Under the pieces are notes generated by a model, which did not search any database, was not told the origin of the DNA, and was given only the letters and a program-made list of their open reading frames with translations. The position numbers and the translations under genes are program-made. A stretch of 64,000 bases of DNA from a virus (lineage: Duplodnaviria > Heunggongvirae > Uroviricota > Caudoviricetes): positions 186,569 through 250,568 of IMG/VR virus record IMGVR_UViG_3300026549_000001; one strand, written 5' to 3'. This document shows, piece after piece, positions 7,771 to 56,805 of this stretch (the first letter of the stretch is position 1; each line of letters begins with the position of its first letter).

Positions 7771-8158
7771 AAACAGTAATCCCCGCTATTATTTCAATAT
7801 AATAGGTTTTTGGTCGTACACCAAACCTCCCCATATTTTCTTTAACATCAATAGGTTGAGAGCGGAAAATTATGTCAATTCCCTCATCTCCCGAAGAACA
7901 ATGATGCTTCGTAAAAGTTAGTCCCTGTTGAACCCACTCTATCAGGCTATCGGCTGTCTCTTGACTTCGTGCAGAATATTGTATAGCGTTTATAATAGAT
8001 TGAGTGGAAATTGTATCTTCCCACTCATTTCTTATTGCTAAAGTATTATGTTGTTGACACAATTCAATATTATATTCTATACGGGTATCTACTCCAATAT
8101 TTGTGAATTGTTTGCTAATGTTTTCAAGAGTATTGATTATATCATTTGAACTTAACAT
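7763..8158 (-). CDS. hypothetical protein
   Basis: 131-aa ORF. Confidence 0.4.
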   Translation of the reverse strand: MLSSNDIINTLENISKQFTNIGVDTRIEYNIELCQQHNTLAIRNEWEDTISTQSIINAIQYSARSQETADSLIEWVQQGLTFTKHHCSSGDEGIDIIFRSQPIDVKENMGRFGVRPKTYYIEIIAGITVYV

Positions 8159-8180
8159 TTATCCTCCATAGATTATAAAA

Positions 8181-9251
8181 TTAGTCATATAAATCAAATG
8201 CTATTTTTGATTTTAAGGATGTTGCGTTTATATGTTCCTCTGATAATAGCGCATAAAATGTCTTTTTAGATGGCTTATATATAAACGAACCGAAAGTATC
8301 ACCCTGTTTCAAAAAAGATGTAATCATTGCAGATGGAATATATTTACCATCGGGCTGTAGATAAAATCTTGATAGTAATGCTATTTCATAAAATCTACTC
8401 TGAACACCGATATATCCTATTTGGTCTATAATCTCATTGATTTTTGCTTTTACAGATGGATAGTCGGTTATCTCTTTCTTATCAATCTTTTGTTCAAGAG
8501 CAACATTTAGTTTTTCCGTAACACCCTTATTCATACTATCTAATGATGCTTGTGTGGCGTGTTCTGTTATCATTAGAGTAGAATATACTCCTATATATTT
8601 AGGTATAAAATATCTATCGTGTGCGCGTTTATATATTCCAGCACAAGTTTTACAAAACTTCCTATGTGTTCTACTATGTTTACAGGTAAGAAAACTTCTT
8701 ATATGTATGGTAGATAACCCTTCTACATTGGAAAGAAATTCCTCATAGGATTCTGTAAAATCATTTAGTTCCGTAATAAAATGATTCTTGACTTTATAAT
8801 TATAGGTAGTTTCATCAATAGGAAGTTCTAATTCCGAACCCTCCGCACCACAATCATCATAAGATAAATCTATAATCATATTATCACAAGACGAAATAAG
8901 TTTCTTATAGAAAAATCCACTTTCTGTAATATTAGTTACATTTGCCGCTATTACAGATTTCATAAACTTACTACTTTCTTCTTCGGTGTAATTTGCTCCC
9001 CTGCGCTGACAAGATGCAATAATATCTTTTGTATTCCCTGTAAAGGCTGTTATGTGTTCAATTTTTCGCATAGCTTCAAATGATTGTTCATTGGGTGTTC
9101 CAAAAGCATTAGCAAAATCTCCCACATTTGGGATGTAGCATTCGGAAAACATTTTACTACCTAAAGCGTTATATGCTTTTGTATAAGTAGCTCTATCAAC
9201 AGAATTTAATTTATCACAAGCGGTTTCATACTTCATTAATAAACCCTCCAC
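8181..9251 (-). CDS. multisubunit RNA polymerase beta' subunit, C-terminal piece (beta'C)
   Basis: SGFFYKKLISSCDNMII resembles beta' region F (SGYLTRRLVDVAQD); ITEHATQASLDSMNKG resembles trigger-loop motif IGEPGTQLTMRTFHIGG; downstream of beta'N on the same strand. Confidence 0.6.
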   Translation of the reverse strand: MEGLLMKYETACDKLNSVDRATYTKAYNALGSKMFSECYIPNVGDFANAFGTPNEQSFEAMRKIEHITAFTGNTKDIIASCQRRGANYTEEESSKFMKSVIAANVTNITESGFFYKKLISSCDNMIIDLSYDDCGAEGSELELPIDETTYNYKVKNHFITELNDFTESYEEFLSNVEGLSTIHIRSFLTCKHSRTHRKFCKTCAGIYKRAHDRYFIPKYIGVYSTLMITEHATQASLDSMNKGVTEKLNVALEQKIDKKEITDYPSVKAKINEIIDQIGYIGVQSRFYEIALLSRFYLQPDGKYIPSAMITSFLKQGDTFGSFIYKPSKKTFYALLSEEHINATSLKSKIAFDLYD

Positions 9252-9424
9252 GCCTCATTTGTAAAAAACTTATCAATATCAGATGTAGACCATAAAACAA
9301 TATAATTGAGCTTATTTTTAATGGCTATATCTCGCTTTTCAATATCATCAAGAGTCCATCTTTGGATAGCTCTATTATAGAAAGGAGTATTCTTTTTACG
9401 CCACTTTTCGACAATAAGATTATC
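9237..9424 (-). pseudogene. C-terminal fragment of a disrupted homing-endonuclease-like gene (paralog of 39428..40309)
   Basis: open frame with no start codon translating to ...FYNRAIQRWTLDDIEKRDIAIKNKLNYIVLWSTSDIDKFF, which aligns with the C-terminus of the 293-aa paralog (FYDKVIEVWTVADVNKYNIALQNNLNYKQIWDIKELEEY). Confidence 0.6.
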
Positions 9425-9453
9425 TTAAACATCGTTCATAAATTAATACATTA

Positions 9454-10896
9454 TTAAACAAAAACCAACCCTGCATTTTGTTTTAGTAATTTACATTTAC
9501 TATATAATGCTTTTACTCCATCTTCAAATATTAAATATTGTGGGTTTCCTTTATATATGCCTTGTGAGCCTTTTAGTGTTCTCACTTTATTATTTACAAA
9601 CCATTTACTGCCAGGTAATATTCTATCTATTCTCTTTTTTATTGGTAAATGGTCTTTTACCTTTAAATTGTCTGCTCTCCCACCTTGTAGTATATATTCA
9701 TCCAAACTCAAAGAATTTTGTTCAAAAGCCCTATGACGGTTGGTTGCTACTACTTTTCCATCTAAATAATATTTCCTATGACAATTTTCTTGATGCACTA
9801 CTTGTCTGTCGTGCCGCCTATATTGTTTTATCTTATATATCTTTTTTGGTAACACAACTTTATCAATATTTAATTGAGAGAAAGCAATACAATAAGCATC
9901 TATATAGTGGTCTTTTTCTATTCCATATTTTTTGCGAATTGAAGAAGTCATATATCCATCAGTTAAATGTAATCTATAATCCTTTTGAAGATGCTTTACA
10001 AGAAAAGGAATAATTTGATTTAGAACGCTTAATGCTCTAAATTTTTTATATCTACCCTGTACTATATTTTGTACTTTGTCTTTCCAAGATGGAGAAGTAT
10101 GGATTAAAGAATGATGATATTCACAAAGACCAACTATATTAGAAACTGTATCACTTCCCTGTTTATGCTTTGGGATTATATGGTGATGGTGTTCTATTTT
10201 CTCTTTGCAAAATATACACTTTCCTTCTTGTGTTTTGTAGACTCTATCTTCTAAACTGCCATATCCTTTTAACAGATTTTTTGAAGAAATAACATCAAGT
10301 TCATTAAACCAAAAGGAATTAAGTTCTAAAACAATATCTGTTATTGGTAAAAATTTCCTTATCTTATTTATTAAATTTTGATGTGTTAAAAGTAATTGAT
10401 TCACAGTAGGAGTGAGCCATCCATCTTTCCTTTTACGGTTGCTATATCTTGATTCTTTATTTTTTATATACTTCAATGTAATTGGTGTTTCACATTGAGG
10501 TAATTTCCTTTGAAACTGCTCTGATTTTATTGTTCCATTTGTTTTTGCCCTTCTCTGTTTCTTTTTGCGCCTTGTTGTTTGTCTGTGCTTGCTTCTAAAT
10601 ACTTTTCTTTGAAACATCAATTGGGGAATATCTTTATTTCTTGTTTCAACAGAAGCACTAAATACAGGAATTGCCTTTTCAGTAATAACAGAAATACCTA
10701 TATTAGTTCTACCAGAGTCTACTCCAAGATATAGTTTTTGTACTTTATTAAGTTTTTCTTCTAATAATTGAATAGTAAATGGATTAGTATTATATACTTT
10801 TGCTTTATTATTTTGTAGAAGCCATCTCACATGACCACATCTGTTTGTAGGCATTAATGGCTCTCCATCTTTATTTATTACATATACATATATCAT
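9454..10896 (-). CDS. iscB: IscB RNA-guided nuclease (OMEGA system; IS200/605-family cargo, Cas9 ancestor)
   Basis: N-terminal PLMP motif (GEPLMPTNRCGHVRWLL); RuvC-I LGVDSGRTNIGISV; Arg-rich bridge helix RKVFRSKHRQTTRRKKKQRRAK; RuvC-II ITDIVLELNSF; zinc-finger HNH CIFCKEKIEHHHHIIPKH...SNIVGLCEYHHSLIH; RuvC-III EKDHYIDAYCIAF; 480 aa; all catalytic residues present. Confidence 0.85.
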   Translation of the reverse strand: MIYVYVINKDGEPLMPTNRCGHVRWLLQNNKAKVYNTNPFTIQLLEEKLNKVQKLYLGVDSGRTNIGISVITEKAIPVFSASVETRNKDIPQLMFQRKVFRSKHRQTTRRKKKQRRAKTNGTIKSEQFQRKLPQCETPITLKYIKNKESRYSNRKRKDGWLTPTVNQLLLTHQNLINKIRKFLPITDIVLELNSFWFNELDVISSKNLLKGYGSLEDRVYKTQEGKCIFCKEKIEHHHHIIPKHKQGSDTVSNIVGLCEYHHSLIHTSPSWKDKVQNIVQGRYKKFRALSVLNQIIPFLVKHLQKDYRLHLTDGYMTSSIRKKYGIEKDHYIDAYCIAFSQLNIDKVVLPKKIYKIKQYRRHDRQVVHQENCHRKYYLDGKVVATNRHRAFEQNSLSLDEYILQGGRADNLKVKDHLPIKKRIDRILPGSKWFVNNKVRTLKGSQGIYKGNPQYLIFEDGVKALYSKCKLLKQNAGLVFV

Positions 10897-11170
10897 ATTA
10901 TTATAAGTCGCTTCATAGAAAATGAAGGTAAATGTCTCCCCTGACTGCTTATAGGCTTTGCAGAGTTATAAACTGGGAAAATTCATAAGTGCCATCTATT
11001 TTAAGAACGCCTATAAACGATGTCTGTAACCTACCCGCAGTAATATATCAAAAAGTTGTATGTACCGCAAGTAGGATTTTATTAGTAATAGCACGAGCGG
11101 CTTTTTGTTTATCAACAGTATCAGAAGAATGTGCCTTTTCTTGTGTAGAGGGAATAAGTAAAGTATATTC
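10897..11170 (-). ncRNA. putative omegaRNA scaffold upstream of iscB (extent uncertain)
   Basis: non-HEG-like GC-richer sequence immediately 5' of iscB; IscB omegaRNAs are known to lie 5' of the ORF; the 3' boundary (left end) is inferred from where homology of the flanking HEG fragment to its paralog ends. Confidence 0.3.
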
Positions 11171-11563
11171 TACTCCATATCTATCTAATGCAGTTTGTTT
11201 TCGACTTACTTTTTGTTGAGCAATTATTTCGGGGGTATGCGTTTTTTCTACCACATCTGCTCTTTGAAAAACATTAGTTACACCATACTTTTGTAAACAA
11301 GTTTGTTTTCGTTTTTCGGCAGTTCCAATAGACATACAGCTATTAGAACAATATGTATAATATCCTTCTGATAAAGAATTAAAGTTGGTAGGATTGCCAC
11401 ATACTTTACAATAACCCTTACCATAAAACTTCTCATAATACTTTTGTGCCGTTATGCTGTGGATTTGTCGTATATGTGAGGCTAATCCCATCAAATTGCT
11501 AAATGATTTACCACATATCTTACATGAGCAATCTATCAATTTCGTTTCCTTTACCTTCGTCAT
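11048..11563 (-). pseudogene. N-terminal fragment of the disrupted homing-endonuclease-like gene (C2H2-like Zn finger + YGV(x)N repeats); C-terminal ~40 aa probably read-through into inserted element
   Basis: aligns with residues 1-130 of the 293-aa paralog (CxxCGK...H...H; KYGVTNVFQ; RYGVEY); lacks the paralog's C-terminal nuclease-like domain. Confidence 0.55.
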
Positions 11564-12803
11564 AAAGTTTCTGCATAGTGTATTGTAAATCTTCGGGAAT
11601 ACAGTTTCTTATACTACCATTAGAACCCTCTATATAGTTTACACTTGGTAATAGAGATTTTGCTTCCATACAAGCGGCTTTTGTATACAATGCGATTGCC
11701 GCCAAGCAGTCGCCGTCATAATCTCCCCCTAATCCGCAGGTAATGATTGGGTTCAACTGCATAACATACTTATCTTCTTCCTTATCAGAAAAGACAGGTA
11801 TCATTCCTAAAATAGATAAAGCACCAATTGTAGGCTGTCTATTTATAAGAATATAATATTCATTATCTCTCAAATATTTATTAAGTGCAGTAATATCAGT
11901 AATACCGTTAGTATTAGTGAATTTGTCAAATAATTTGGGATAAAGAGTTTTAATGAAATATTTACCCAAAAGAGCAACATCTTCTGAAATATCAAAGTTA
12001 TTCGTAATTACAGCCCTTATACAGCCTGTAACTCCTTGCCCAATAATTTCACGGGCAAGAATAGATTTTTTGCCTTTCACAAGCATATCAAACAAGCCGT
12101 CATATACTTCGTGAATTTTAGCAAGGATAATTCTTTTGGCATCTAATTCATGAAATACATCTACAACAGTTTCTTGTGTATTTAAGATATTCTGAATAGC
12201 TTTCTTTTGTTTCAGAATATCCACAAAGATAGTGTTTAAATTCCCAAGAAAATATGAACCTCTTTGAATAGTAATCTTCCTTAACGATGTATGTGGGATG
12301 GATAATTTATCATGCACCTGTGCATTATACCATTCTTCTGTACCGCCTAAATAAAAGATAGCATCTTTACCAATAAGAACCTTATCTTTATCAAAGTCAG
12401 TTAAGTTAAGAGTAGTTAGATTAAATTCCACATATTCACCATCATAAAGAAATCCCCTATAATTTAGAATATCATCAACTAATTGATAGTCGGCAAAATC
12501 AGGTATATCTATTTGAAGATAGGGAATATCTAACATACCTTTAAAGGATATATAGAAATTCGGAACTCTGCGTTTATTTAATACTCTTGTTCCACAGTAT
12601 TGACAAATTCCTGGTTTAGTTCTCGCACCACAGGAACACTTACCGAACTTACCAAAAATCTTTGTAGAGAATATACCCTTATCATTAAATAAAAGATTAC
12701 CGTCTTTATCTTTAATTTTATGAGGTTGAAAAACAGAATGAGATGTAACTTCATTTATAGGTAGTTCTTTTATTTTCACTCTTTGTATAGTAACTTTGCT
12801 CAT
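11520..12803 (-). CDS. multisubunit RNA polymerase beta' subunit, N-terminal piece (beta'N)
   Basis: Zn-binding [26 protein letters not shown] matches beta' [46 protein letters not shown] matches NRQPTLHRLGIQAF; catalytic [13 protein letters not shown] matches NADFDGDQMAVH. Confidence 0.8.
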   Translation of the reverse strand: [427 protein letters not shown]

Positions 12804-15031
12804 AGAATACCCCCATTACTCTCTATGGAATTAAACCAAGTCATATCTTGTTCATCAAATTCAATATTAGATAGGTCTGATTTAGTTAATGATTTACCAT
12901 TAACTCTTATATCATATCCAATAGATTTCAAGACTGTTGCTAATTTTAATGATAATGAAGGATTATTAGGAAGTTCTCTTGTTTCTTCCATTTCAGCTAC
13001 CATTTTATTAGCCCCAATATGCTTGTGCATACTTCGTATTGATAACTCTTTAAGAATATTTATACTACCAGATGCTACAAGATTGAATTTTTCCATCTCA
13101 CCAAGTTTCAGCACTTTATCAAAAGCACCATCCGCTTTTGATTCAGAAATATGAATGCTTGCGTGATGATATACTCTCATCATTGTAATAATTCCAACAG
13201 GAATAATATTTGTTTCACCATTAAAAGTGATGACTGAATTATTAGCATACTCACGCATTTGGTCGCTATACTTTTCAATCATATTGGCAATAAAATCCTC
13301 ACCATCTTGATATTCAATACCGCTTGCATTAGCCCACGCTTCAAATATCTGTCCTAATGAACCTCTACGCATTGTAGAAAATCCTGAAATAATAACTTCA
13401 AGATGTCCTTCTTCCATATTGCCTACCTTTTTAGTAAGATAAGGCATTTCAGCATCAGGAACAATCTTTCCAACAGTACCTTTTGCTCCATGACGGTTTG
13501 TGATTTTATCTCCAAGTCTGAAAGGAATTTCCCAAGACAGGAATATTCTAACCCCATAATCTTCTACATAATCAAATCTATCTACTTTCACATTTTCATA
13601 ACTGCTCAAAATAGCTTCAGCCGTTGATGGATATATTTTTTGTAAAAGCTCAATAGAAATGTTATCTTTATTCTTCTCTAATTCAGCAACAACTTTATCT
13701 TTGGTTTCAAAATATAGTATATCTTTTGAATAGGTACGAAGTCTATTTGCAAAGGATTCTGAAATGATAATGCTATCACCATAGGTGAATCCTTTAATAT
13801 CTGTAAATCCTACACGAGCATTTATAAGATGAGTTAAAGGGTTAAGTTCTTCTTTAAGGGGAACACTTTGAGAGGTGAGTTTTGCGTTCATCATAATCCT
13901 TTTAGGCTTATCATTATTACCAAAAGGAGCAGATGATAGGCAAGAAAGGCGAACAGGTTGAGGCTCTATCATATACTCAAACATATTCTTTTCAACCCCA
14001 TTTTCCTCAATCCAAAGCATACCATCTTTGACGATTACATTATCAAGAAGTAGTCTTTGTCTACCCGCAGAAGAAGATGTAACGGTTTTGAAAGCATCAA
14101 AAAATCCTATAGTATCTGTATATGTAAAAGCGGGTTTATATTCCCCATTATATATATTAACAACTGTTCTGAAATTTTCCAAAGCATAAATAGGGCTTTC
14201 TGCTCTTATCAAACAGCCATCATTTCTTTCTCCTGTATAGAATACTTTATTTTGACTGGCAAACATTTGATTTATGCCTAATAGAATCTTCTTTGTTGGT
14301 TGAGCATAACGACCGCTCTTAAAGATTATATCTTCAAAATATTCTATACGCGCAAATTTATAATTGAATATAGAGTTGCTTTCAAAGGTGGGTAATAATC
14401 CTAATGCTTGCTTAAAGTTATCAATAGATAGCGGTTCATCTAATACACTTTGTAATAAGGCTCTTGACCTTTTAGAGAGTCTATTATTATATATTTCTTC
14501 TAATGTAGGCTCAAATGGATTTTGTTTTAGAACACAAGTAAACTTATCCTCAAATATATCATAAGTCCACCCCTCACCTTTAATGGTTTGGAAATCTACT
14601 TTACCGAGAAAGGTATAATAATCTCTTACAGCAGTAACCCTCGGAACATACTTTGTTCTGTTGATAATCCAAGTTAAATCTTGACAGGGGGTAGGAATTG
14701 CACAAATCTTAAATTCTTTATCAACATTAGTGCCTTTATATTCTACTGAATATACAGCAGAAACATCTATGCACATATTATAAAAATTAAGAGATAAGCG
14801 ATAGGAGTTCTTGAGTTTCCTATCAAAGTTTTTATCAAGAACTCCACTATTTATACCATTTGCGAGTTGACAAGGCTGTTCAACATTCCAATATTTCAAA
14901 CAGCATTCGTCAAGATGTTTTTGTATATCACTAAAAGGAATAGAATCATCTATTGGTTCTATTCCAAATAGTTTTATATTAGCCTTTTTCCAATAATTCT
15001 GTTCTCTATTGAAAAGTTGAATTTCTTTCAT
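12800..15031 (-). CDS. multisubunit RNA polymerase beta subunit (compact/C-terminal portion)
   Basis: GDKITNRHGAKGTVGKIV matches beta GDKMAGRHGNKGVISKI; PFGNNDKPKRIMMNAKLTSQSVPL matches the HND...NMQRQAVPL region; LGEMEKFNLVASGS matches GEMEVWALEAYGA. Confidence 0.75.
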   Translation of the reverse strand: MKEIQLFNREQNYWKKANIKLFGIEPIDDSIPFSDIQKHLDECCLKYWNVEQPCQLANGINSGVLDKNFDRKLKNSYRLSLNFYNMCIDVSAVYSVEYKGTNVDKEFKICAIPTPCQDLTWIINRTKYVPRVTAVRDYYTFLGKVDFQTIKGEGWTYDIFEDKFTCVLKQNPFEPTLEEIYNNRLSKRSRALLQSVLDEPLSIDNFKQALGLLPTFESNSIFNYKFARIEYFEDIIFKSGRYAQPTKKILLGINQMFASQNKVFYTGERNDGCLIRAESPIYALENFRTVVNIYNGEYKPAFTYTDTIGFFDAFKTVTSSSAGRQRLLLDNVIVKDGMLWIEENGVEKNMFEYMIEPQPVRLSCLSSAPFGNNDKPKRIMMNAKLTSQSVPLKEELNPLTHLINARVGFTDIKGFTYGDSIIISESFANRLRTYSKDILYFETKDKVVAELEKNKDNISIELLQKIYPSTAEAILSSYENVKVDRFDYVEDYGVRIFLSWEIPFRLGDKITNRHGAKGTVGKIVPDAEMPYLTKKVGNMEEGHLEVIISGFSTMRRGSLGQIFEAWANASGIEYQDGEDFIANMIEKYSDQMREYANNSVITFNGETNIIPVGIITMMRVYHHASIHISESKADGAFDKVLKLGEMEKFNLVASGSINILKELSIRSMHKHIGANKMVAEMEETRELPNNPSLSLKLATVLKSIGYDIRVNGKSLTKSDLSNIEFDEQDMTWFNSIESNGGIL

Positions 15032-27344: not shown

Positions 27345-27420
27345 TGGCAGGGGAGAAGGGACTCGAACCCTTATCTGTCCGATTTGGAGTCGGAAATCTT
27401 ACCAATTACACCACTCCCCT
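27345..27420 (-). tRNA. tRNA-Trp (anticodon CCA), CCA encoded
   Basis: manual fold: acceptor AGGGGAG/CTCCCCT, anticodon arm TCCGA-CTCCAAA-TCGGA, T-arm AAGGG-TTCGAGT-CCCTT. Confidence 0.8.
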
Positions 27421-37013: not shown

Positions 37014-39428
37014 TTACTCTAAATCCAAGTCAGTATATTCTTTCCCGTGTAATGTAATATATTCTTTTCTATCAGCAGAGTCGTTACCCATAAACAGTTC
37101 AAGATATTTCTCTGCTTCTTTAGCATCTTCCATTGTGACTCTTGTGAGATGTCTCGTTTCAGGAGACATGAAGATTGCCATAGTTTGATAATCCACCTCA
37201 CCCAGACCCTTGTTTCTCGATAATTTACATTTAATCCCATCTGTCATATCTTTCATTTCTTGGTCGGTAAAGGCATAGAGCATTTTTCCCTTATCTTTTC
37301 CCTCTAATATTTGAATTTCATATAAGGGCGTGTCCAAGAAATAAACATATCCTTGTTTTATAAGTTCAGGGGTTAGTCGATAGAATAGGGTAAGACAAAG
37401 TGCAATTATGTGGCAATTATGTACTATAATTCCTTCCAAATTGTCATCATCTACACAAACCATAAAGTTTTCATATCCTGGAACAGTCAAGTCATATACC
37501 TTAATAGGCACATCACAAACAATATGTTGCATAGACTTTATTCTATGATTATATATTTTTGAATGTCTGAAATAAATAGAGCTTATAGAATCATTTGGTG
37601 TTAGGCTTTGCGCTTCTTTATATGTACCATCATTTAGTAATATTCTATGGTCTGGGGTACATCTTACCACAAATCCATTTTCAAAGGTTAGCTCTACTAA
37701 TTCAGTTGTTTCCTTTGTTACACGCGGATTAACTGCTCTTGCGGGAACAACTTCTCCATTTTCATCTTTTGAGTATACCCACAACTCGGTAATGTTATTA
37801 TTGACTAACTCTTCAAAAGTATATGTATTCCCATCTAACGACTTAATTTTAGTGTCTCCAGTAAAGCACCCATCGGTGTCCTGGTCTGTAGCAAGAATTA
37901 TTTTATCGAATCTTCTGTTATTGATGTCAAAATTGCCAAGATTGTTTTTACCTTTGCCCCCATGCATTTCAACACCTGTACCAACTAATTTCATAATATC
38001 CATAATCAATTCATTTTTAAAGATACTACTATAATCAGCTTTTAGAGTATTTAATATTTTACCTCTTATAGCAAGAAGGGCTTGTGTTTCTCCATTTCTT
38101 GCTTGTTTCAAAGAACCCATTGCGGATAAACCTTCCGCAATAAAAAGTTCTCTATCTTCGGGGTTTTTATTTCGACAATCAACAAAATTCTTGATTCTAT
38201 CATCTAACTTCATTTTGTTAGATAGTTTTTGTTTAGTTGCTAATTTCTGTGCGGTTGCGCTCTTTCGAGATTGCACATTAATTGATACCTGATTGGTTAC
38301 TTTTTCAAGCTCTAATGGGTTTTCTTTTGCCCAATCCCTCAAAAACTTTGTTATCTGTTGAGCTAAAAATTCCTCAATGAATTTATTATTTATAGCCCTC
38401 TTGGTTTGGTTTTCGTATGAAGTTTCTGTACTAAAGGTATTTGACAGGAAAATCATTGAGTCCTGTATGTCCTCAAATTCAAGTTCCTTTGCTCTGTTGC
38501 TATCTGTCTTTTTTAATTCTGTTTTAAAGAACTCTAAAAGTGCTTTTTCTTTTGCTCGTCTGGGAGAGCCACCATATAGTAAAGGGGAGGAGTTGTGGAA
38601 ATATAGAGAATTTGGACTTTTATTACCAAATAAAATAACTACTTCTCCTTTTACCTTATAATTAGGCTTATCGGCTCTATCTTTCCCCGCACCTTCAAAT
38701 GTAAAATTAATGGCATCAGTTAGTGTTTCATTTCCCGCAAGTTCTTTTGCAAATCCTAAAATACCATTAGGATAAACTATTGTTTCTTTAGTTCCATCTC
38801 TTTTATCTATAAAATTAAAGGTTAATCCAGCATTTACAATTGCTTGTTCTTTTAACATTTGTAAATACCATTCTTTGTCAATATTGATGTCGGTAAATAC
38901 TTCTATGTCAGGCTTAAATATTTGCTTCGTTCCTGTTTTCTGTGGTTTGGCAGTATCTTTCTCTTTAATTAAGTTTCCGACAGGTTCGCCCTTTTCAAAT
39001 GACATTTTAAAGATTTTTCCATCTCTTCTTGATTCCACCTTAAACCACTCGGACGATGCTTGAGCCGCAAATGTTCCCAACCCATTAATTCCTAAACTAA
39101 AATCATAAGAATCATTGGAATATTTTGAACCAGAGTACATCTCGCAGAAAATAAGCTCCCAATTATATCTGTCTTCTGCCTTATTATAGTCCATAGGAAC
39201 TCCCCTACCAAAGTCTTCTACTTCAATAGAGTTATCATTGCCTATAGTTATATTTATGGTGTCGCCATAACCGCTTCGAGCCTCATCAATAGAGTTAGAA
39301 ATAATTTCAAAAACGGCGTGTTGTGTTCCCTGAATATCATTAGAGCCAAGCATTACCCCTACTCTTTTTCGTATTCTATCTGCCCCTTTAAGTGAACTTA
39401 TACTGCTATCATCATATTTTTTTGCCAT
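37014..39428 (-). CDS. type II DNA topoisomerase, GyrB-like ATPase/TOPRIM subunit (T4 gp39-like), containing a mini-intein
   Basis: ATPase EIISNSIDEA; TOPRIM EGLSAMGS and IILATDQDTDG; extein resumes CHIIALCLTLFYRL...PLYEI, matching GyrB SHIRTLLLTFFYR...PLYKV. Confidence 0.8.
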   Translation of the reverse strand: MAKKYDDSSISSLKGADRIRKRVGVMLGSNDIQGTQHAVFEIISNSIDEARSGYGDTINITIGNDNSIEVEDFGRGVPMDYNKAEDRYNWELIFCEMYSGSKYSNDSYDFSLGINGLGTFAAQASSEWFKVESRRDGKIFKMSFEKGEPVGNLIKEKDTAKPQKTGTKQIFKPDIEVFTDINIDKEWYLQMLKEQAIVNAGLTFNFIDKRDGTKETIVYPNGILGFAKELAGNETLTDAINFTFEGAGKDRADKPNYKVKGEVVILFGNKSPNSLYFHNSSPLLYGGSPRRAKEKALLEFFKTELKKTDSNRAKELEFEDIQDSMIFLSNTFSTETSYENQTKRAINNKFIEEFLAQQITKFLRDWAKENPLELEKVTNQVSINVQSRKSATAQKLATKQKLSNKMKLDDRIKNFVDCRNKNPEDRELFIAEGLSAMGSLKQARNGETQALLAIRGKILNTLKADYSSIFKNELIMDIMKLVGTGVEMHGGKGKNNLGNFDINNRRFDKIILATDQDTDGCFTGDTKIKSLDGNTYTFEELVNNNITELWVYSKDENGEVVPARAVNPRVTKETTELVELTFENGFVVRCTPDHRILLNDGTYKEAQSLTPNDSISSIYFRHSKIYNHRIKSMQHIVCDVPIKVYDLTVPGYENFMVCVDDDNLEGIIVHNCHIIALCLTLFYRLTPELIKQGYVYFLDTPLYEIQILEGKDKGKMLYAFTDQEMKDMTDGIKCKLSRNKGLGEVDYQTMAIFMSPETRHLTRVTMEDAKEAEKYLELFMGNDSADRKEYITLHGKEYTDLDLE
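37416..37868 (-). other. mini-intein (151 aa) inserted in the TOPRIM domain of the GyrB-like gene
   Basis: begins CFTGDTKI (block A), TPDHRIL (block B), ends VYDLTV...ENFMV...GIIVHN followed by +1 Cys; host protein motifs are contiguous when the segment is removed. Confidence 0.75.
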
Positions 39429-40309
39429 TACTTCCCATACCTCTCTATTAATTCTTGCATATACTCTTCTAATTCTTTAATATCCCATATTTGTTTGTAA
39501 TTGAGATTATTTTGAAGTGCTATATTATATTTGTTTACATCTGCCACCGTCCACACTTCTATAACCTTATCATAAAATTTACTCTGTTTTGATTTAAATT
39601 CATTTAATTGTCTGATGTCATTAGGGTTACTTTTATTAAAGTTATGATGATTGTGTGTGGGATGTAAATTTAACTCAATAAATAAATCTAATGGTTTTAT
39701 ATAAAAATCACAATGAAACGGATACCTTTCATCCGCATTATACTCTCTTTTTATATCTTCTCTCTTAAAAATTGTTAAAAGAAACCTATTAAAGTCTTCT
39801 TCGGCTTTAGAAGTGTTAAATGTTCCATTATTTCTTTTAGTAGCCAATCTCTTTCTATTTGCTTCTTTTGTATGTCCATTTATTTTAGTTTTTTCCAAGT
39901 GTGTTGGGTTTTCGACCCCGTACCTTTTTAAATTGGTTTGTTTTATTTTTTCTTTAATTTCTTCGCTTTGAAAAACATTATCTACGCCGTATAATTTCCT
40001 TATACTTTCACGGTATCTTTTACTTCCAAATCTAAATGGATTTACTTCCCCATAATTCTTAATCCAAGTAGCGTCCTTTAACCGTTTTACACTTTCACTA
40101 TTATTAGAACACTTAAGACTGCAAAATTTTGTATATCCTACAAATACTCCTATAAATCTTTTCTTTTTACCACAAACAGAACAACGGCTGTCGTTTTCAG
40201 CACCTATATAAGTTTGATAATACTCTTCAGCAGATATATTATGCGCCTTTAGGTGTACCCCAAATTGTTTTTTATTTAACAGTTTTCCACATAATTCACA
40301 TTTTTCCAT
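39428..40309 (-). CDS. free-standing homing-endonuclease-like protein (N-terminal C2H2-type Zn finger, tandem YGV(x)N repeats, C-terminal nuclease-like domain)
   Basis: CELCGK...H...H; LYGVDNVFQ / RYGVENPT repeats; paralog of the split gene at 9237..11563; sits immediately upstream of the topoisomerase gene. Confidence 0.5.
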   Translation of the reverse strand: MEKCELCGKLLNKKQFGVHLKAHNISAEEYYQTYIGAENDSRCSVCGKKKRFIGVFVGYTKFCSLKCSNNSESVKRLKDATWIKNYGEVNPFRFGSKRYRESIRKLYGVDNVFQSEEIKEKIKQTNLKRYGVENPTHLEKTKINGHTKEANRKRLATKRNNGTFNTSKAEEDFNRFLLTIFKREDIKREYNADERYPFHCDFYIKPLDLFIELNLHPTHNHHNFNKSNPNDIRQLNEFKSKQSKFYDKVIEVWTVADVNKYNIALQNNLNYKQIWDIKELEEYMQELIERYGK

Positions 40310-47649: not shown

Positions 47650-47925
47650 TTATTCTTCTATTGTGAGTTCCCACCAATTTGTTTTTGGTGTTTCTTTTTC
47701 TTCTATATTAATATGTGACATATTATCAAGCACCCATTGATAGTAGGAAATCATTACTCCCGCGCAAATTCCTACAGGAATAAGAATTGCAAGGGAAATA
47801 ATTGTAGCGGTCAAAGTTATTGCTTCGGCTTCGGAGAGCTTTACGGTCAAATAGCCGCCAATCATGCTTATTGCGGCAAGCCACCAAGCAATAGACTTTT
47901 TCGTAGAAATAATCTTGCGATTCAT
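47650..47925 (-). CDS. small membrane protein
   Basis: 91 aa, 2-3 TM; promoter TTGACA-16-TATAAT at 47959-47986. Confidence 0.4.
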   Translation of the reverse strand: MNRKIISTKKSIAWWLAAISMIGGYLTVKLSEAEAITLTATIISLAILIPVGICAGVMISYYQWVLDNMSHINIEEKETPKTNWWELTIEE

Positions 47926-49573: not shown

Positions 49574-49662
49574 TGCCGTTTGATGGGACTCGAACCCACA
49601 TCGCATCAGGAGGTATTTCACCATAAAACTACTGGTGCATTTTGCCATTAAACTACAAACGA
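49574..49662 (-). ncRNA. tRNA-like element (canonical T-arm and acceptor, aberrant 9-nt anticodon loop and long variable region)
   Basis: GTGGG-TTCGAGT-CCCAT T-arm; acceptor TCGTTTG/CAAACGG; anticodon region CACCA-GTAGTTTTA-TGGTG; lies in its own promoter-to-terminator unit. Confidence 0.35.
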
Positions 49663-49767
49663 CACATTATGAGGACGGTTTTTAAGGTTTACGATTGTTG
49701 TCAACAGTTCCACGGCGAAAGTGCGGTAAGAAGAACCGTCCGAGAAAACTTCTCACCTGATGTTTAT

Positions 49768-49796
49768 ATTATAACAAAGCTGAACTTATTTGTCAA
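49768..49796 (-). promoter_or_regulatory. sigma-A-type promoter TTGACA-17-TATAAT (minus) driving the tRNA-like ncRNA
   Basis: tgtcaa 49791-49796; attata 49768-49773. Confidence 0.5.
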
Positions 49797-49816
49797 TACT
49801 TTTAGAAAATATATTA

Positions 49817-51913
49817 TTATGAGAACCTTAACCATTGTATAAAGGTAAAGTTATTAAGGTCTGAACTATTAACATATCCAACATTAGAAGTATTGTTTCC
49901 AATTTGAACATAATAATATTTGCCTATCTTTCCATATATAATAAGGAAAGAATTTTTTGGAATGGTTCTTATTATATTTCCATAATGAGTAGGTTTATTA
50001 TACATTTTTGCATTAACTTTTGTATATGCCATACCTGTCCAACCTATACCAATTGCTGAACCAACAGATAATAAATCTCCTCTAATATAACCAACATATT
50101 GATTATACTTACAATGTAACCATCCATCTTTTTCCCCAATGACTTCTACTCTTTCTCCATATCTTACAGATGTGATATGAATAGAATTTGTAGTTGCATC
50201 TGCTCTCATTCTTGCAGAACTAACCGTAATTGTTCCCTCTGCCGTAGAATTTGGAGGATTAAATGTTGGAGATGGGGTATTTGTTATAATAGGAGTTGGA
50301 GTAGGCGTGTTTGTTGGTTTTGGTGTAGGTGTTGGAGTATTTGTCGGTCTTGGCGTGACAGTCGGAGTAGCAGTCGGAATTGGTGTAGGACTGTTTGTAG
50401 GTCTTGGCGTGGCGGTTGGTCTTGGGGTATTTGTAGGTTTGGGAGTTGCCGTAGGATTAGGCGTATTGGTAGGGGTAGGAGTTGGAATAGGTGCTGTTGT
50501 GAAATTAGGTTTACTCTCTGTAATATTAGTAATATCTAACTTATCATAATAGAAAGCCAAAATATCTGTATAAGAAGCTCCACCTTTAGCCCTCTGTTCT
50601 GCTCCATATTGGCTCATACCTAAACCATGTCCCCATCTACAATAAAGAACCTCATAACCATTATCTATTTCTCTACCCCAATAGATTTTAAATGGTTTTG
50701 TAAATATACCAACATCTTTTAATTTACTTGCTTTTATATCAACTACATATTCCGTATCGGTATCAGTTAATACAGTAAGTCGAAGCAAGGATAAATCTCT
50801 AACACTACCATTATGGTTTGGTGTGTGCATTTCTGCATTTATTATTGTAGCAATATTTATTTCTGATAGATTATAAATATTCTTTATATCATCTTCAATA
50901 AGGGTTTTAAATTGTTTATTTTCTATTGGAACATTATATTCAATAGGTAATGTTTCTATATAGCGTTCAGGGTAATACATTAAATCAATATCATCTAATT
51001 TAGTAGAAAAAAGATGGTCTTGATATGTAGAACCCCATACCCAAGAAGGAATGGCGGTTTCTCCACCATTAGTAGCGGCGTAATAAGATAATACAGTATT
51101 ACCATTATAAGTCAGAACTTTACCACAAACATTCAAACAAGCATTTAAGCATTTGGAATAGTTAGGTAAATATCCCCTATACCCTTGATAATTCATTGAA
51201 TCCGTAATTTGATATTCTGTAGTATTAGAGGGGAAGGAGAAAGCATAAGTTTTTGCCGCAATAGCCTGTGCCATTAATGCTTGGATATTACAACTCTCAC
51301 TCATTTCATAAGGAACTACACCATATAAATAAAAAGCTGTTGGAAGGTGATTTATTAATCTAACCTTATTATCCTTGTTATCTATTTTAATATCGCCCAA
51401 ATAGTATCTACCATCATTAAATTCAAAATCAGTAGTATTTAATTTAACTATTTGACTTGTTGCTTGATATGCAATATTTTTAAGGGTACAAGATTTATTA
51501 GCAAATACAGTAGCGTTATTATGAACTATTTTTATGCCATTGTTCATTATGCTGATATTCAATAGCTGTGGATTTGATAATGAACCCTGTATTACATAAT
51601 TATTCTCTTCTATGTAATAAGTACCTAAACAAGTTAAGGTTAGAGAAGAAACATCTCCAACAGTTAATAGTACATCTATATTGCTATAGTCTGATATTAG
51701 TTTTGTTGTTCCCTTTGTTAATGGTCTTTCTGAATTTTGTGATTTTGCAAAATTATCTTTGGCTGTGACTGTTTCATTAGTTGGAAGTTGGATAAATTCA
51801 TATTTGGGAATTTTATATTCGTCCACTTGCGTTCTATTTACAGTCGCAATAGTTGAAGTAGAAGTAAGCCCTAATATGCCTACCATAAAAAGTGAAATTA
51901 ATTTGTTAATCAT
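49817..51913 (-). CDS. secreted SpoIID/LytB-domain protein with Pro/Thr-rich linker and two C-terminal SH3b domains
   Basis: signal peptide; SpoIID motif [13 protein letters not shown]; PT repeats ([17 protein letters not shown]...); SH3b-like [19 protein letters not shown]. Confidence 0.7.
50270..50480. repeat. low-complexity coding repeat (Pro/Thr linker) within the SpoIID-like gene
   Basis: imperfect ggtgt/ggagt repeats on the plus strand. Confidence 0.6.
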
Positions 51914-52165
51914 TTATCTACCTTTCGTTTATTTATTAAGCAAGGGTGAAGCACTCTCGCTTTTTAATGGTTAGAAAAAACTCTTGTAAAAATGATATAT
52001 GTTTTCCATTATTATATCAAATGTTTCCACTAAAGTCAATATGGAAAATACAGCTTTGGATATATTTATATGTTTCATCAAAAAATATCAGTTCACCAAA
52101 ACGGTGAAACTATGTAAAACCATGAAACCACACACATATTTGTAAATATATTCTTATAAATATAG

Positions 52166-52194
52166 TTGACAAAGAAACAATATTACTGTATAAT
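52166..52194 (+). promoter_or_regulatory. perfect sigma-A consensus promoter TTGACA-17-TATAAT (plus)
   Basis: TTGACA 52166-52171; TATAAT 52189-52194. Confidence 0.6.
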
Positions 52195-52237
52195 AAAGCT
52201 TATCAAAATAACTATATTATGAACAGGAGTATTATAA

Positions 52238-52537
52238 ATGAAAATAATAGGAAAAATAAATCTGCAAAAAGTGAATATAGTTGACTATGACACCGTTTTT
52301 GCATATTCAGAAGTTGGGCAGTCCCCTCAACTATATATGAGAGTAGACTTGCAAGACGAGTTTTTTAAAGCCCTCAAGCCGCTTATCGCTCCAGAAGGAG
52401 AGATGATACCTTCTTCTGTCGTTGTTTTTAATCTTCAAAATGGTAGACTTAAGATAATCCCTAAAACCACGATGGTTATGACTTATCCAACGGCTACTAT
52501 AAATTTAACAGAAGATAATTGTCCTGATAACAGCTAA
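52238..52537 (+). CDS. hypothetical protein (only convincing plus-strand gene)
   Basis: 99-aa ORF with RBS CAGGAG; own promoter and terminator. Confidence 0.55.
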   Translation: MKIIGKINLQKVNIVDYDTVFAYSEVGQSPQLYMRVDLQDEFFKALKPLIAPEGEMIPSSVVVFNLQNGRLKIIPKTTMVMTYPTATINLTEDNCPDNS

Positions 52538-52545
52538 AATATTAC

Positions 52546-52610
52546 GAATTATATACATCTTAACAAAACCCACAAACCTTATGCTTTTGGTTTGTGGGTT
52601 GTAGTTTTAG
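52546..52610. terminator. bidirectional rho-independent terminator between convergent genes
   Basis: 12-bp stem AACCCACAAACC/GGTTTGTGGGTT, T-rich flanks on both strands. Confidence 0.55.
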
Positions 52611-52614
52611 GCTA

Positions 52615-52929
52615 TTATATAAATATACAGATTATTCCGTTATTACCAGAATCAATCCTTTTAACTTCAAACTCCAAGTATTTGGATATATGTATAGGAT
52701 TAATTATCAATGTTGGGTTTGGAATGCACCTAAATTTACCAACAGAAGTTTCGACCATTTCCATATATGGTTTAACTTCAGTAAGCAGCTCTTTCCAAGA
52801 TTTACAACTGTTAATGGCTGTGCTATGTTGCGGTAATTCATTTATTAATAGTTGTTTTACTATCGTTAAGTCTTCTATGAAAATAGTATATTCGTGAGAT
52901 ATTATCTTTATAAGTTCTCTTGCAGTCAT
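52615..52929 (-). CDS. hypothetical protein, tandem paralog A
   Basis: 104 aa; ~45% identical to 52988..53302 (MT.(R/G)ELIKII...CNSWEEL...GDNGI.CI.I). Confidence 0.5.
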   Translation of the reverse strand: MTARELIKIISHEYTIFIEDLTIVKQLLINELPQHSTAINSCKSWKELLTEVKPYMEMVETSVGKFRCIPNPTLIINPIHISKYLEFEVKRIDSGNNGIICIFI

Positions 52930-52987
52930 ATTTTATCCTTTAAGTCTGACAATTTAATGTTTCTTATGAGCTATATTTTTTAGAGTA

Positions 52988-53302
52988 TTATATAACTATG
53001 CAGAGTATTCCGTTATCACCAGCGTAAATCTTTTTAACCTCAACATCCCAGTATTTAGCAAAATGTATAGGATGAATCCCCCATTTTGGGTGACTCTGCT
53101 CATAATATCTCCCAACATAAATTTCCACATCTTCCCTATATGACTCAATTTCGTTAGATAGCTCCTCCCAAGAATTGCATCTATGAAGGGCTATTTTATG
53201 TTCAGGAAAGGTATCTATTAGTAAATGTTTGACAATATTGAAGTCTTCTACAATAATGCAAAATTTGTACTCTATTATTTTTATAAGTTCTCCGACCGTC
53301 AT
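52988..53302 (-). CDS. hypothetical protein, tandem paralog B
   Basis: 104 aa; paralog of 52615..52929. Confidence 0.5.
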   Translation of the reverse strand: MTVGELIKIIEYKFCIIVEDFNIVKHLLIDTFPEHKIALHRCNSWEELSNEIESYREDVEIYVGRYYEQSHPKWGIHPIHFAKYWDVEVKKIYAGDNGILCIVI

Positions 53303-53490
53303 ACTTTCTCCTTTAAGTGATTATTGTCACAATCAATATATGCTTTTCCTATACCACAAATATAACAATCTGCTGATTCAGGATAATAAGTTTTTTGCCA
53401 AAATTTTAAATTCTTTATATATTTTCTTCTAAAGAAAAAGATAACAACCGTTAAAAGAATTAAACAAACCGCAATAAAATCAATCCTCAT
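53299..53490 (-). CDS. small membrane protein
   Basis: 63 aa with N-terminal TM. Confidence 0.35.
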   Translation of the reverse strand: MRIDFIAVCLILLTVVIFFFRRKYIKNLKFWQKTYYPESADCYICGIGKAYIDCDNNHLKEKV

Positions 53491-53996: not shown

Positions 53997-53997
53997 T

Positions 53998-54786: not shown

Positions 54787-54855
54787 TTTATCCTCCTTAA
54801 TCGGCAGATGGTGGAACTCGAAACCACAAAATATATTGATTATAAATCAAGCGCA

Positions 54856-55047: not shown

Positions 55048-55075
55048 ATTCTACCTTCCTATTAGTTTTTCAAAA

Positions 55076-55163: not shown

Positions 55164-55209
55164 ATAAAATTACTTGTATTTTCACGAAGGACTATTACCA
55201 ATAGGTAAT

Positions 55210-56804: not shown

Positions 56805-56805
56805 C

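What the first reader, a model, noticed from the sequence alone, without database searches (positions are those of the whole stretch)
10897..11170. Candidate omegaRNA scaffold immediately 5' of iscB
IscB omegaRNAs are encoded directly upstream of the ORF, with the guide at the 5' end adjacent to the IS left end. The 150-270 nt upstream of the iscB ATG (minus strand) are GC-richer than the surroundings and contain stem-forming segments (for example CTGCGGGTAGG...; CAGTCAGGGGAGAC). They lie exactly where homology of the disrupted HEG to its paralog stops, near 11170. The last ~40 codons of the 11048..11563 ORF do not align to the paralog and may be omegaRNA sequence read as protein.
Basis: inference. 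Interest (0 to 1): 0.6.

Follow-up and report, generated by a model that had tools for sequence, protein, structure and literature searches.

The report
Guide RNA gene upstream of IscB

Summary
I built a covariance model only from the upstream regions of 24 related iscB genes, one of them the OgeuIscB locus, with no window sequence. It hits the window once at significance: 10895-11027 (minus strand), 88 bits, E=1.8e-20, over the full model. Just 5' of that lies a 48-nt hairpin (11077-11030). It sits where every relative has its guide-adaptor hairpin. All the helices I derived from covariation are present and canonical in the window, and they map one-to-one onto the cryo-EM architecture of the OgeuIscB omegaRNA. 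These are the nexus stem, central stem, nexus pseudoknot hairpin, pseudoknot stem and terminal hairpin. The scaffold is therefore 10897-11077, not 10897-11170. The predicted 16-nt guide is 11093-11078, which is homing-endonuclease (HEG) coding sequence. Similarity of the HEG to its family continues to about 11129-11093. Only about 9 codons of ORF 11048-11563 are omegaRNA read as protein, not about 40. Rfam HEARO stays far below threshold (19 bits), but OgeuIscB's own omegaRNA scores lower still (13 bits). The IscB ORF is intact with its catalytic residues. Expression, TAM and target are inferred. Verdict: a new member of a known kind. In passing, many relatives, the OgeuIscB locus among them, carry terminal inverted repeats and 7-8-bp target-site duplications. 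Empty alleles confirmed the duplication at two other loci. IS200/IS605 elements are described as having neither.

The parts
11078..11093 (-). Predicted 16-nt guide (5'-UGCUAUUACUAAUAAA-3'). It is native HEG coding sequence immediately 5' of the scaffold. The boundary is uncertain by about 2 nt.
   Evidence: In multi-copy relatives, conservation begins exactly at the first base of the first hairpin and the 5' flank differs between copies. In OgeuIscB the guide abuts scaffold nt G1 and about 16 nt suffice (PMC9640706). For the window this is inferred.
11030..11077 (-). Guide-adaptor hairpin (stem loop 1, called P1 in this report). The stem is CCUACUUGCGGUA / UACUGCGGGUAGG and contains 3 G-U pairs.
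   Evidence: Hairpin 11075-11030 folds at -18 kcal/mol, z=-5.26, against -10.9 kcal/mol for the opposite strand. A hairpin at this position occurs in nearly all relatives. Its 9 basal pairs are 91% paired against 78% in shuffles and 24-44% when slid, and 7 of the 9 show compensatory changes.
11022..11027 (-). ACAGAC motif. GAC (11024-11022) is the 5' strand of the nexus stem and pairs with GUC at 10945-10943.
   Evidence: 100% of cells are paired across 54 distinct sequences, with GGC/GCC, GCC/GGY, GAC/GUC and GGA/UCC variants. The pairs are canonical in the window.
11009..11017 (-). Central stem, 5' strand (UUUAUAGGC). It pairs with 10956-10948 (GCCUAUAAG).
   Evidence: The window's unconstrained minimum-energy fold forms this stem. 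Arms differ between relatives yet stay complementary. A sequence's own arms reach 7 or more contiguous pairs in 64% of cases, against 17% for mismatched partners.
10960..10992 (-). Nexus pseudoknot hairpin: closing pairs GCA/UGC, a 7-bp stem UUAUGAA/UUUAUAA, and the loop UUUUCCCAG (10981-10973).
   Evidence: This is the best-conserved part. 94-97% of cells are paired and 6 of the 7 stem pairs show compensatory changes. It is also the part matched by Rfam HEARO positions 86-183.
10935..10947 (-). CAGUCAGGGGAGA. It holds the 3' strand of the nexus stem (10945-10943) and the 3' strand of the pseudoknot stem (10940-10935), which pairs with loop bases 10975-10980.
   Evidence: RNAalifold found the loop-to-GGGAA pairing on its own. 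98.7% of cells are paired, with U-A to G-C or C-G swaps in some relatives.
10948..10956 (-). Central stem, 3' strand (GCCUAUAAG).
10911..10927 (-). Terminal hairpin, CUUCAU-UUUCU-AUGAAG.
   Evidence: It forms in the window's minimum-energy fold. The homologous helix is 89% paired with 4 covarying pairs. The window row sits one column out of register in the model alignment.
10897..10910 (-). 3' tail CGACUUAUAAUAAU, running up to the iscB start codon. It is homologous to the GUCUUACAGAAA(GGAG) tail of relatives, but here there is no GGAG.
   Evidence: The OgeuIscB 206-nt scaffold likewise ends at the start codon (PMC9640706).
9454..10896 (-). iscB, 480 aa, intact.
   Evidence: Pfam RRXRR at 3e-40 plus HNH. 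The PLMP motif is visible in the translation. E=2e-141 to OgeuIscB chains over residues 2-478. D60, E191, H238/H239, H262, H266, H330 and D333 fall in invariant columns of 39 homologs.
11048..11563 (-). N-terminal fragment of a C2H2 zinc-finger / DUF7487 homing-endonuclease-like gene. Its last ~9 codons are omegaRNA sequence.
9239..9424 (-). C-terminal fragment of the same HEG. It resumes at paralog residue ~235, so paralog residues 159-234 have no counterpart here.

Best explanation
Window 10897-11077 (minus strand) is the scaffold of an IscB omegaRNA of the OgeuIscB type. The roughly 16 nt just upstream (about 11093-11078) are HEG coding sequence and serve as its guide. Shown here: the scaffold is homologous in sequence and structure to the RNA encoded upstream of related iscB genes, including OgeuIscB. 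It has a guide-adaptor hairpin, nexus stem, central stem, nexus pseudoknot hairpin, pseudoknot stem and one terminal hairpin. The adjacent iscB ORF is intact and keeps its catalytic residues. Inferred: the RNA is transcribed from the minus strand through the HEG fragment and binds IscB. The complex would then cut DNA that carries the 16-nt match followed by a TAM. The expected target is an uninterrupted allele of this HEG in a co-infecting genome. Repair from the IscB-bearing genome would copy the module across, which is homing. The window's own copy is protected because the scaffold, not a TAM, follows the guide sequence.
For: The window's own evidence is as follows.
- Model R1 (142 positions, 18 pairs) was built from 24 homolog upstream regions without the window. 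It hits 10895-11027(-) at 88 bits, E=1.8e-20, over the full model. The only other hit in 64 kb has E=0.41.
- The window's score lies inside the family range of 54-129 bits. In every locus searched the hit ends about 10 nt before iscB, on its strand.
- Covariation on homologs alone gives 90.6% of cells paired, against 77% in shuffles (0 of 500 reach it) and 30-51% when partners are slid; 16 of 24 pairs show compensatory changes. With the window and more loci the figure is 95.4% against 80.7%.
- The basal pairs of hairpin P1 covary.
- The window's unconstrained fold reproduces every helix, at -44.6 kcal/mol and z=-3.42. The opposite strand gives z=-0.91.

The link to a characterised system:
- The IscB of locus L199 scores 1140 bits (E reported as 0) over residues 1-491 against OgeuIscB chains 7XHT/7UTN. 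Its upstream RNA was in the training set.
- The helices match the architecture described for OgeuIscB in PMC9640706.
- The window IscB matches OgeuIscB at E=2e-141.

Other support:
- Similarity between copies begins exactly at hairpin P1.
- At two polymorphic sites in relatives, the occupied allele's guide sequence sits next to a purine-rich motif in the empty allele. At the first site this is CAAGGA, which fits NWRRNA. At the second, AAAGGA fits only if the duplication is read as 7 bp (TAM from PMC12660989).
Against: There is no transcript or binding evidence. The sigma-70 scan is uninformative (5 sites against 3.6 expected). Rfam HEARO is far below its gathering score (19.1 against 83 bits). 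The window RNA lacks stem loop 3, has only a 3-bp stand-in for stem loop 2, and has one terminal hairpin where OgeuIscB has two. It is about 181 nt long against 206. There is no Shine-Dalgarno motif before iscB, unlike the relatives. No uninterrupted HEG allele was found, so the TAM and target are unknown. No right-end repeat was found downstream of iscB.
Confidence: 0.9

Rival explanations
1. The region is only the tail of the disrupted HEG reading frame plus an ordinary 5' untranslated leader of iscB, with no RNA function of its own.
For: ORF 11048-11563 reads through to 11051.
Against: A model built without the window matches at E=1.8e-20. The helices covary across the family. The fold is specific to one strand. 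HEG similarity ends before 11077.
Confidence: 0.02
2. It is a decayed relic. The sequence descends from an omegaRNA, but the module in this phage is no longer active as an RNA-guided nuclease; it may be stranded or domesticated.
For: No right-end inverted repeat was found. Seventy-six codons of the HEG have no counterpart relative to the paralog. There is no Shine-Dalgarno motif before iscB. Stem loops 2 and 3 are reduced or absent. The window's score (88 bits) is in the lower part of the family range.
Against: The iscB ORF is full length with catalytic residues in invariant columns. Every core helix is canonical in the window. The nearest relatives (L161, L164, L170, L081) also lack a right-end repeat, and other close relatives lack the optional stem loops (L164, L170 and L161 lack stem loop 3; L164 and L170 also lack stem loop 2). 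These features are therefore traits of the subgroup, not decay.
Confidence: 0.06
3. The hairpin at 11077-11030 works mainly as DNA, as a transposon end recognised by a transposase, rather than as part of an RNA.
For: In many relatives the 5' arm of this hairpin is the left terminal inverted repeat of the element.
Against: The two roles do not exclude each other. The window has no matching right end. The stem has 3 G-U pairs and is much weaker on the other strand. In OgeuIscB this hairpin is resolved as part of the RNA (PMC9640706).
Confidence: 0.02

Closest known systems
OgeuIscB omegaRNA (cryo-EM structures 7XHT, 7UTN, 8CSZ; PMC9640706)
   Same: Both lie directly 5' of iscB and end at the start codon. 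They share the same order of elements: guide, guide-adaptor hairpin, ACAGRC/nexus stem, central stem, nexus pseudoknot hairpin with a ...CCCAG loop, a pseudoknot stem to GGGRA, a linker and a terminal hairpin. The two are homologous by covariance model. The proteins match at E=2e-141 over their full length, and the window protein is about 45-56% identical to its family.
   Different: The window RNA is about 181 nt against 206. It has no stem loop 3, only a 3-bp remnant of stem loop 2, and one terminal hairpin rather than two. It is AT-rich (35% GC against 52%). It has no GGAG before the ATG. Its TAM is unknown. The OgeuIscB locus has a 22-bp terminal inverted repeat and an 8-bp flanking repeat; the window has neither.
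Rfam HEARO RNA (RF02033)
   Same: It is the described RNA family for IscB omegaRNAs. The window's nexus pseudoknot hairpin and flanks (GCAC...CCCAG...CUCUGC, UAAGCAG) align to model positions 86-183, on the right strand and in the right place.
   Different: The score is 19.1 bits against a gathering score of 83. A classical member, L038 from Tissierella, scores 107.6 bits. The OgeuIscB-type RNAs as a group fall below the model; OgeuIscB's own RNA gets 13.1 bits.
Cas9 crRNA:tracrRNA
   Same: Both have a 5' guide followed by a scaffold with a nexus-like element, and both serve a RuvC/HNH nuclease. This follows from established knowledge of IscB as the ancestor of Cas9.
   Different: The omegaRNA is a single transcript with no CRISPR array. 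Its scaffold is much larger and pseudoknotted, and it stands in for the REC lobe (PMC9640706).
TnpB reRNA/omegaRNA of IS200/IS605
   Same: Both are transposon-encoded guide RNAs whose guide is the sequence flanking the element.
   Different: The TnpB RNA overlaps the 3' end of tnpB and the right end of the element, with the guide at its 3' end. Here the RNA lies 5' of the gene with the guide at its 5' end.

Membership tests
IscB omegaRNA, OgeuIscB type | Encoded directly 5' of iscB on the same strand, ending at the start codon | tested here: met
   The model match is 10895-11027(-) and the ATG is at 10896. The arrangement is the same in 55 other loci.
IscB omegaRNA, OgeuIscB type | Sequence and structure homology to omegaRNAs of related IscBs, including an experimentally characterised one | tested here: met
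   Model R1 was built without the window and gives 88 bits, E=1.8e-20. Training locus L199 encodes a protein that scores 1140 bits over residues 1-491 against OgeuIscB.
IscB omegaRNA, OgeuIscB type | Core helices of the solved architecture: guide-adaptor hairpin, nexus stem, central stem, nexus pseudoknot hairpin, pseudoknot stem | tested here: met
   All are present and canonical in the window and covary in the family. They map onto the description in PMC9640706. The peripheral stem loops 2 and 3 and the second terminal hairpin are reduced or absent.
IscB omegaRNA, OgeuIscB type | A cognate IscB with a PLMP motif, split RuvC, arginine-rich helix and HNH, and intact catalytic residues | tested here: met
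IscB omegaRNA, OgeuIscB type | A variable guide taken from the flank immediately 5' of the scaffold | tested here: inconclusive
   This is shown for multi-copy relatives and at two polymorphic sites. For the single window copy it is inferred by position only.
IscB omegaRNA, OgeuIscB type | The RNA is expressed, binds IscB and directs TAM-dependent DNA cleavage | not testable with these tools
   This needs RNA sequencing and biochemistry.
Rfam HEARO (RF02033) | A score at or above the curated gathering score (83 bits) | tested here: not met
   There was no hit at the gathering score and none at E<=10 in a 2.5-kb search. A 251-nt search gave 19.1 bits, E=0.042. The OgeuIscB locus RNA also fails, at 13.1 bits, so this failure reflects the reach of the model.
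IS200/IS605-type ISC transposon | Subterminal hairpins at both ends | tested here: inconclusive
   A left-end hairpin is present. No right-end structure or repeat was found within about 350 nt after iscB.
IS200/IS605-type ISC transposon | No terminal inverted repeats and no target-site duplication (PMC4810608, PMC13565253) | tested here: not met
   This applies to relatives, not to the window. 104 of 146 loci have a ~20-24-bp terminal inverted repeat. 29 of 66 unique flank pairs have an 8-nt direct repeat, against 1.5% in a shuffled-pair control. Empty alleles carry a single copy of the repeat. The window's own right side is uninformative.
IS200/IS605-type ISC transposon | A Y1 transposase (TnpA/IscA) in the element or elsewhere in the genome | not tested
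   None lies between the HEG fragments. The rest of the window was not screened.

The most novel reading that the evidence does not exclude
The omegaRNA's first hairpin may do two jobs. In the OgeuIscB-type family its 5' arm is the left terminal inverted repeat of a ~1.7-1.8-kb element, and that element inserts with a 7-8-bp target-site duplication lying directly next to a TAM-like motif. This would mean these IscB/omegaRNA modules are moved by a transposase of the cut-and-paste or copy-in (DDE-like) kind, or by some undescribed route, and not by the IS200/IS605 or IS607 machinery they are usually assigned to. The duplicated 8 nt are also the seed of the guide. The window copy and its nearest subgroup would then be derivatives without a right end that can spread only by IscB-guided homing.
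Probability: 0.35. Interest if true: 0.7.

Novelty: new member of a known kind. Interest (0 to 1): 0.4.

Why it matters
For the window, this result annotates a non-coding gene that protein-based and Rfam-based pipelines miss. Rfam's HEARO model fails on the whole OgeuIscB-type group. It also fixes the left boundary of the IscB module and gives a testable guide sequence.

The result shows a nested set of selfish elements in a jumbo-phage-like genome. An RNA-guided nuclease module sits inside a homing-endonuclease gene, which itself lies between the two halves of a split RNA-polymerase beta' gene. The compact ~181-nt scaffold, which lacks stem loop 3 and a second terminal hairpin, is a natural minimised relative of an RNA that genome-editing groups have been shortening by hand.

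The side observation may matter more. If terminal repeats and target-site duplications are general for this family, which includes the OgeuIscB locus itself (inverted repeat and 8-nt flanking repeat seen, but no empty allele checked there), then the accepted account of how these IscB elements move is incomplete.

Tried and rejected
- Megablast of 8000-13000 against deposited phage genomes found nothing.
- An IMG/VR scan with the single IscB protein found nothing. The protein alignment was needed to reach relatives.
- MAFFT alignments of the full-length upstream regions put the first hairpin and the ACAGGC motif in two different registers. RNAalifold on a MAFFT alignment of the 3' core recovered only the pseudoknot pairing. 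I therefore derived helices from votes of single-sequence folds and gave the structure to the model explicitly.
- The central stem could not be put into the model because its 5' arm is not in register. I tested it separately instead.
- The second model hit, at 47774-47852(+), E=0.41, was rejected. It lies antisense inside a 91-aa membrane-protein ORF, has no iscB nearby, and lacks 78 model positions.
- A search for intact homologs of the HEG returned only the query's own 171-aa ORF. A search for related phages through the RNA-polymerase beta' N-terminal part found none. No empty allele is therefore available, and the window's TAM is unknown.
- The sigma-70 promoter and terminator scan was at chance level.
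- The predicted guide has no other near-match in the window beyond chance.
- No right-end inverted repeat and no flank duplication were found downstream of the window's iscB.
- I at first read that absence as a deletion of the right end. I withdrew this because the nearest relatives also lack a right-end repeat.
- The resemblance of one subfamily's repeat (GGGTAT-TTGCAAA) to the IS6/IS26 consensus (GGTTCTGTTGCAAA, 8-bp duplication; PMC6807381) is only a lead. No transposase gene was linked to it.

Full report
**Setting.** On the minus strand the window reads as follows:
- an RNA-polymerase beta'-like N-terminal gene (11520-12803; Pfam RNA_pol_Rpb1_2);
- the N-terminal fragment of a C2H2 zinc-finger/DUF7487 homing-endonuclease-like gene (11048-11563);
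- a 480-aa iscB gene (9454-10896; Pfam RRXRR at 3e-40 plus HNH, with a PLMP motif);
- a C-terminal fragment of the same HEG (about 9424-9239);
- an ORF (8181-9251, no Pfam match) that I take, from position alone, to be the beta' C-terminal part.

The identical IscB protein is on record on a 250,591-bp contig. The window also holds 20 tRNA genes. I read it as part of a jumbo-phage-like genome, but no deposited phage matches it.

- GC content is only marginally raised: 0.35-0.37, against 0.20-0.37 in iscB and 0.29-0.36 in the HEG fragment.
- HEG similarity does not stop at 11170. The DUF7487 match runs to residue 145, which is nt 11129. tblastn with the paralog at 39428-40309(-) extends, weakly, to residue 157, which is nt 11093. 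Position 11170 is where the well-conserved RYGVE motif ends.

**Related sequences.** The IscB protein has hundreds of relatives at 45-56% identity. I fetched loci from genomes, IMG/VR and metagenomes and from contigs encoding the closest proteins. The last ~280 nt before the ATG of these genes align with the window and share conserved blocks: ACAGRC, GCAC, a hairpin with loop UUUUCCCAG, CUCUGC, AGCCAGGGGAAAC, a hairpin, and GUCUUAC. The stems between those blocks differ in sequence yet stay complementary.

**Formal test of homology.** I aligned 24 homolog regions running from ACAGRC to just before the ATG, with no window sequence included. I derived helices from votes of single-sequence folds and built covariance model R1, with 142 positions and 18 pairs.
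- On the homologs alone the structure plus pseudoknot is 90.6% paired. Shuffles give 77.0% (0 of 500 reach the observed value) and slid partners give 30-51%. Sixteen of 24 pairs show compensatory changes.
- Searched over all 64 kb on both strands, R1 hits 10895-11027(-) at 88 bits, E=1.8e-20, over the full model. The nexus-stem, closing and hairpin pairs are all canonical there.
- The only other hit (47774-47852, E=0.41) is antisense inside a small membrane-protein ORF and lacks the middle of the model. I reject it.
- Across 64 sources the window's score sits within the family range of 54-129 bits. Every hit ends about 10 nt before iscB on its strand.
- With the window and more loci included, pairing is 95.4% against 80.7% in shuffles and 23-52% when slid. 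That alignment is fitted to the model, so it leans towards the structure.

**The 5' hairpin and the left boundary.**
- Nearly every relative has a 40-65-nt hairpin ending right before ACAGRC.
- In the window this is 11077-11030. The 11075-11030 core folds at -18 kcal/mol with z=-5.26. It contains three G-U pairs and folds at only -10.9 kcal/mol on the other strand.
- In the window's subgroup the nine basal pairs are 91% paired, against 78% in shuffles and 24-44% when slid. Seven of the nine show compensatory changes.
- In multi-copy families, copies are alike from the first base of this hairpin onward and unrelated upstream of it. The element's left boundary is therefore the start of the hairpin, and the flank is the guide.
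- For the window this puts the scaffold at 10897-11077 and a 16-nt guide at about 11093-11078 (UGCUAUUACUAAUAAA), give or take 2 nt.
- The whole scaffold folds at -44.6 kcal/mol, z=-3.42 (0 of 200 shuffles as good). The opposite strand gives z=-0.91. The unconstrained fold reproduces every helix.

**Link to a solved system.** The IscB of locus L199 scores 1140 bits (E reported as 0) over residues 1-491 against OgeuIscB chains 7XHT and 7UTN. The window protein matches the same chains at E=2e-141 over residues 2-478. L199's upstream 206 nt fit the published 206-nt scaffold. The published helices are the ones I had derived independently (PMC9640706):
- stem loop 1, the guide-adaptor hairpin;
- the nexus stem (A45-U49 with A148-A153);
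- the central stem;
- the nexus pseudoknot hairpin;
- the pseudoknot stem (C93-C96 with G155-G158);
- the terminal hairpins.

The window has all of the core. It lacks stem loop 3, keeps only a 3-bp stand-in for stem loop 2, and has one terminal hairpin. The central stem is UUUAUAGGC/GCCUAUAAG in the window. Across the family, a sequence's own arms reach 7 or more contiguous pairs in 64% of cases, against 17% for mismatched partners.

**Rfam.** HEARO (RF02033) finds nothing in the window at its gathering score or at E<=10 in a 2.5-kb search. In a 251-nt search it matches 10895-10999(-) at 19.1 bits, E=0.042, aligning the nexus pseudoknot hairpin and its flanks. A classical member, L038, scores 107.6 bits. 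Relative L170 scores 24.5, and the OgeuIscB locus RNA scores only 13.1. Failing HEARO membership therefore reflects the model's reach. It does not count against the RNA.

**How it most likely works.**
- Shown: homology, conserved pseudoknotted structure, position, strand, and an intact nuclease gene. D60, E191, H238/H239, H262, H266, H330 and D333 all fall in invariant columns.
- Inferred: the RNA is transcribed and binds IscB, a ~16-nt guide is used, a TAM is required, and the target is an uninterrupted allele of this HEG. Cutting that allele would lead to copying of the module by repair, that is, homing.
- Support from relatives: at two polymorphic sites the occupied allele's guide sequence is followed, in the empty allele, by a purine-rich motif. 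At the first site this is CAAGGA, which fits the published OgeuIscB TAM NWRRNA (PMC12660989). At the second, AAAGGA fits only if the duplication is read as 7 bp; read as 8 bp, the motif is AAGGAG, which fails at the last position.
- Still open for the window: no intact HEG allele or related phage could be found, so its TAM is unknown. The guide has no other target in the window. The promoter scan is at chance level.

**The right side of the window's element.** No inverted copy of the left end and no flank duplication follow iscB. The HEG resumes about 30 nt after the stop codon, and paralog residues 159-234 have no counterpart. I first read this as a deletion. However, the nearest relatives (L161, L164, L170, L081) also go straight from the stop codon into the next gene. 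I therefore leave open whether a right end was lost or never existed in this subgroup.

**Side observation in the relatives.**
- In 104 of 146 loci the first ~20-24 bases of the scaffold recur as an inverted copy 30-53 nt after the iscB stop.
- Of 66 unique flank pairs, 29 carry an 8-nt direct repeat (at least 7 of 8 matching) abutting both repeats. A shuffled-pair control gives 1.5%.
- The OgeuIscB locus itself shows this: repeat AATCAAGT, followed by TAGGAA.
- Two predicted empty sites exist in other contigs, each with a single copy of the repeat. One site appears in seven contigs and the other in one.
- The papers I could read describe ISC, IS605 and IS607 elements as having neither terminal inverted repeats nor target-site duplications (PMC4810608, PMC13565253). 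They also note that IscB is rarely linked to a transposase (PMC10691335).
- I found no paper describing this, but the searchable library is incomplete.
- Solo copies of the hairpin without an omegaRNA also occur. I did not resolve what moves these elements.

**Verdict.** The finding is a correct call of an expected component. It is a new, compact, AT-rich member of the OgeuIscB-type omegaRNA family, sitting in an unusual nested context.

Noticed in passing
Related loci L001-L250, for example L199 1284-3030 (the OgeuIscB locus), L104 2783-4592 and L087 2795-4527: Many OgeuIscB-type elements have ~20-24-bp terminal inverted repeats, with the left one forming the 5' arm of the omegaRNA's first hairpin, and a 7-8-bp duplication of the flank. 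104 of 146 loci have the repeat. 29 of 66 unique flank pairs have the duplication, against 1.5% in a control. The literature I read says ISC/IS605/IS607 elements have neither (PMC4810608, PMC13565253).
   Followed up: partly
L104 against L251-L257; L087 against L292: These are polymorphic insertions. Empty alleles carry a single copy of the duplicated bases (AAATCCAA; CCGCCTG(A)). In them the occupied allele's guide sequence is followed by CAAGGA, which fits the OgeuIscB TAM NWRRNA, or by AAAGGA, which fits only under a 7-bp reading of the duplication.
   Followed up: yes
L261 424-, L268 1326-, L272 5065- (minus strand), L284 327-, L287 1066- (minus strand): Exact copies of the left terminal repeat or first hairpin occur with no omegaRNA core and no iscB next to them. 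They may be solo ends or miniature derivatives. In L287 the hairpin alone (55 nt) is bounded by its own two arms.
   Followed up: partly
window 8181-12803 (minus strand): Selfish elements are nested here. The iscB module sits inside a DUF7487/C2H2 homing-endonuclease-like gene. That gene lies between an RNA-polymerase beta'-like N-terminal gene and an ORF (8181-9251, no Pfam match) that I take to be the C-terminal part.
   Followed up: partly
window 9425-9453 and 39428-40309: Relative to its intact paralog (293 aa), the disrupted HEG has no counterpart for residues 159-234. Only about 29 nt of unassigned sequence separate the iscB stop from the HEG C-terminal fragment.
   Followed up: partly
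window 10897-10910: There is no GGAG-type ribosome-binding motif before the window's iscB. Almost all relatives have AAAGGAG about 8 nt upstream of the ATG.
   Followed up: no
window 37014-39428 (minus strand): The 804-aa ORF just downstream of the HEG paralog reads like a type II topoisomerase/gyrase B-type protein. It is interrupted after ...DQDTDG by a stretch of roughly 130 aa that begins CFTGDTKI and ends ...IIVHN|C, which looks like a mini-intein. This was seen only in the translation.
   Followed up: no
L161 1742-4365: One of the IscB modules closest to the window's splits an EcoRI-methylase-like gene. The N-terminal part is 1742-2317. The C-terminal ORF starts at 3928, which is 57 nt before the iscB stop.
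   Followed up: no
window 49575-63056 (minus strand): This stretch holds 19 of the window's 20 tRNA genes, all on the minus strand. The other one is at 27348-27420.
   Followed up: no
window 47774-47852 (+): This is a weak match of the omegaRNA model (11.7 bits, E=0.41) with ACAGG, CAAGGGAAA and CUUUAC-like strings. It lies antisense within a 91-aa ORF and I judged it to be chance.
   Followed up: yes
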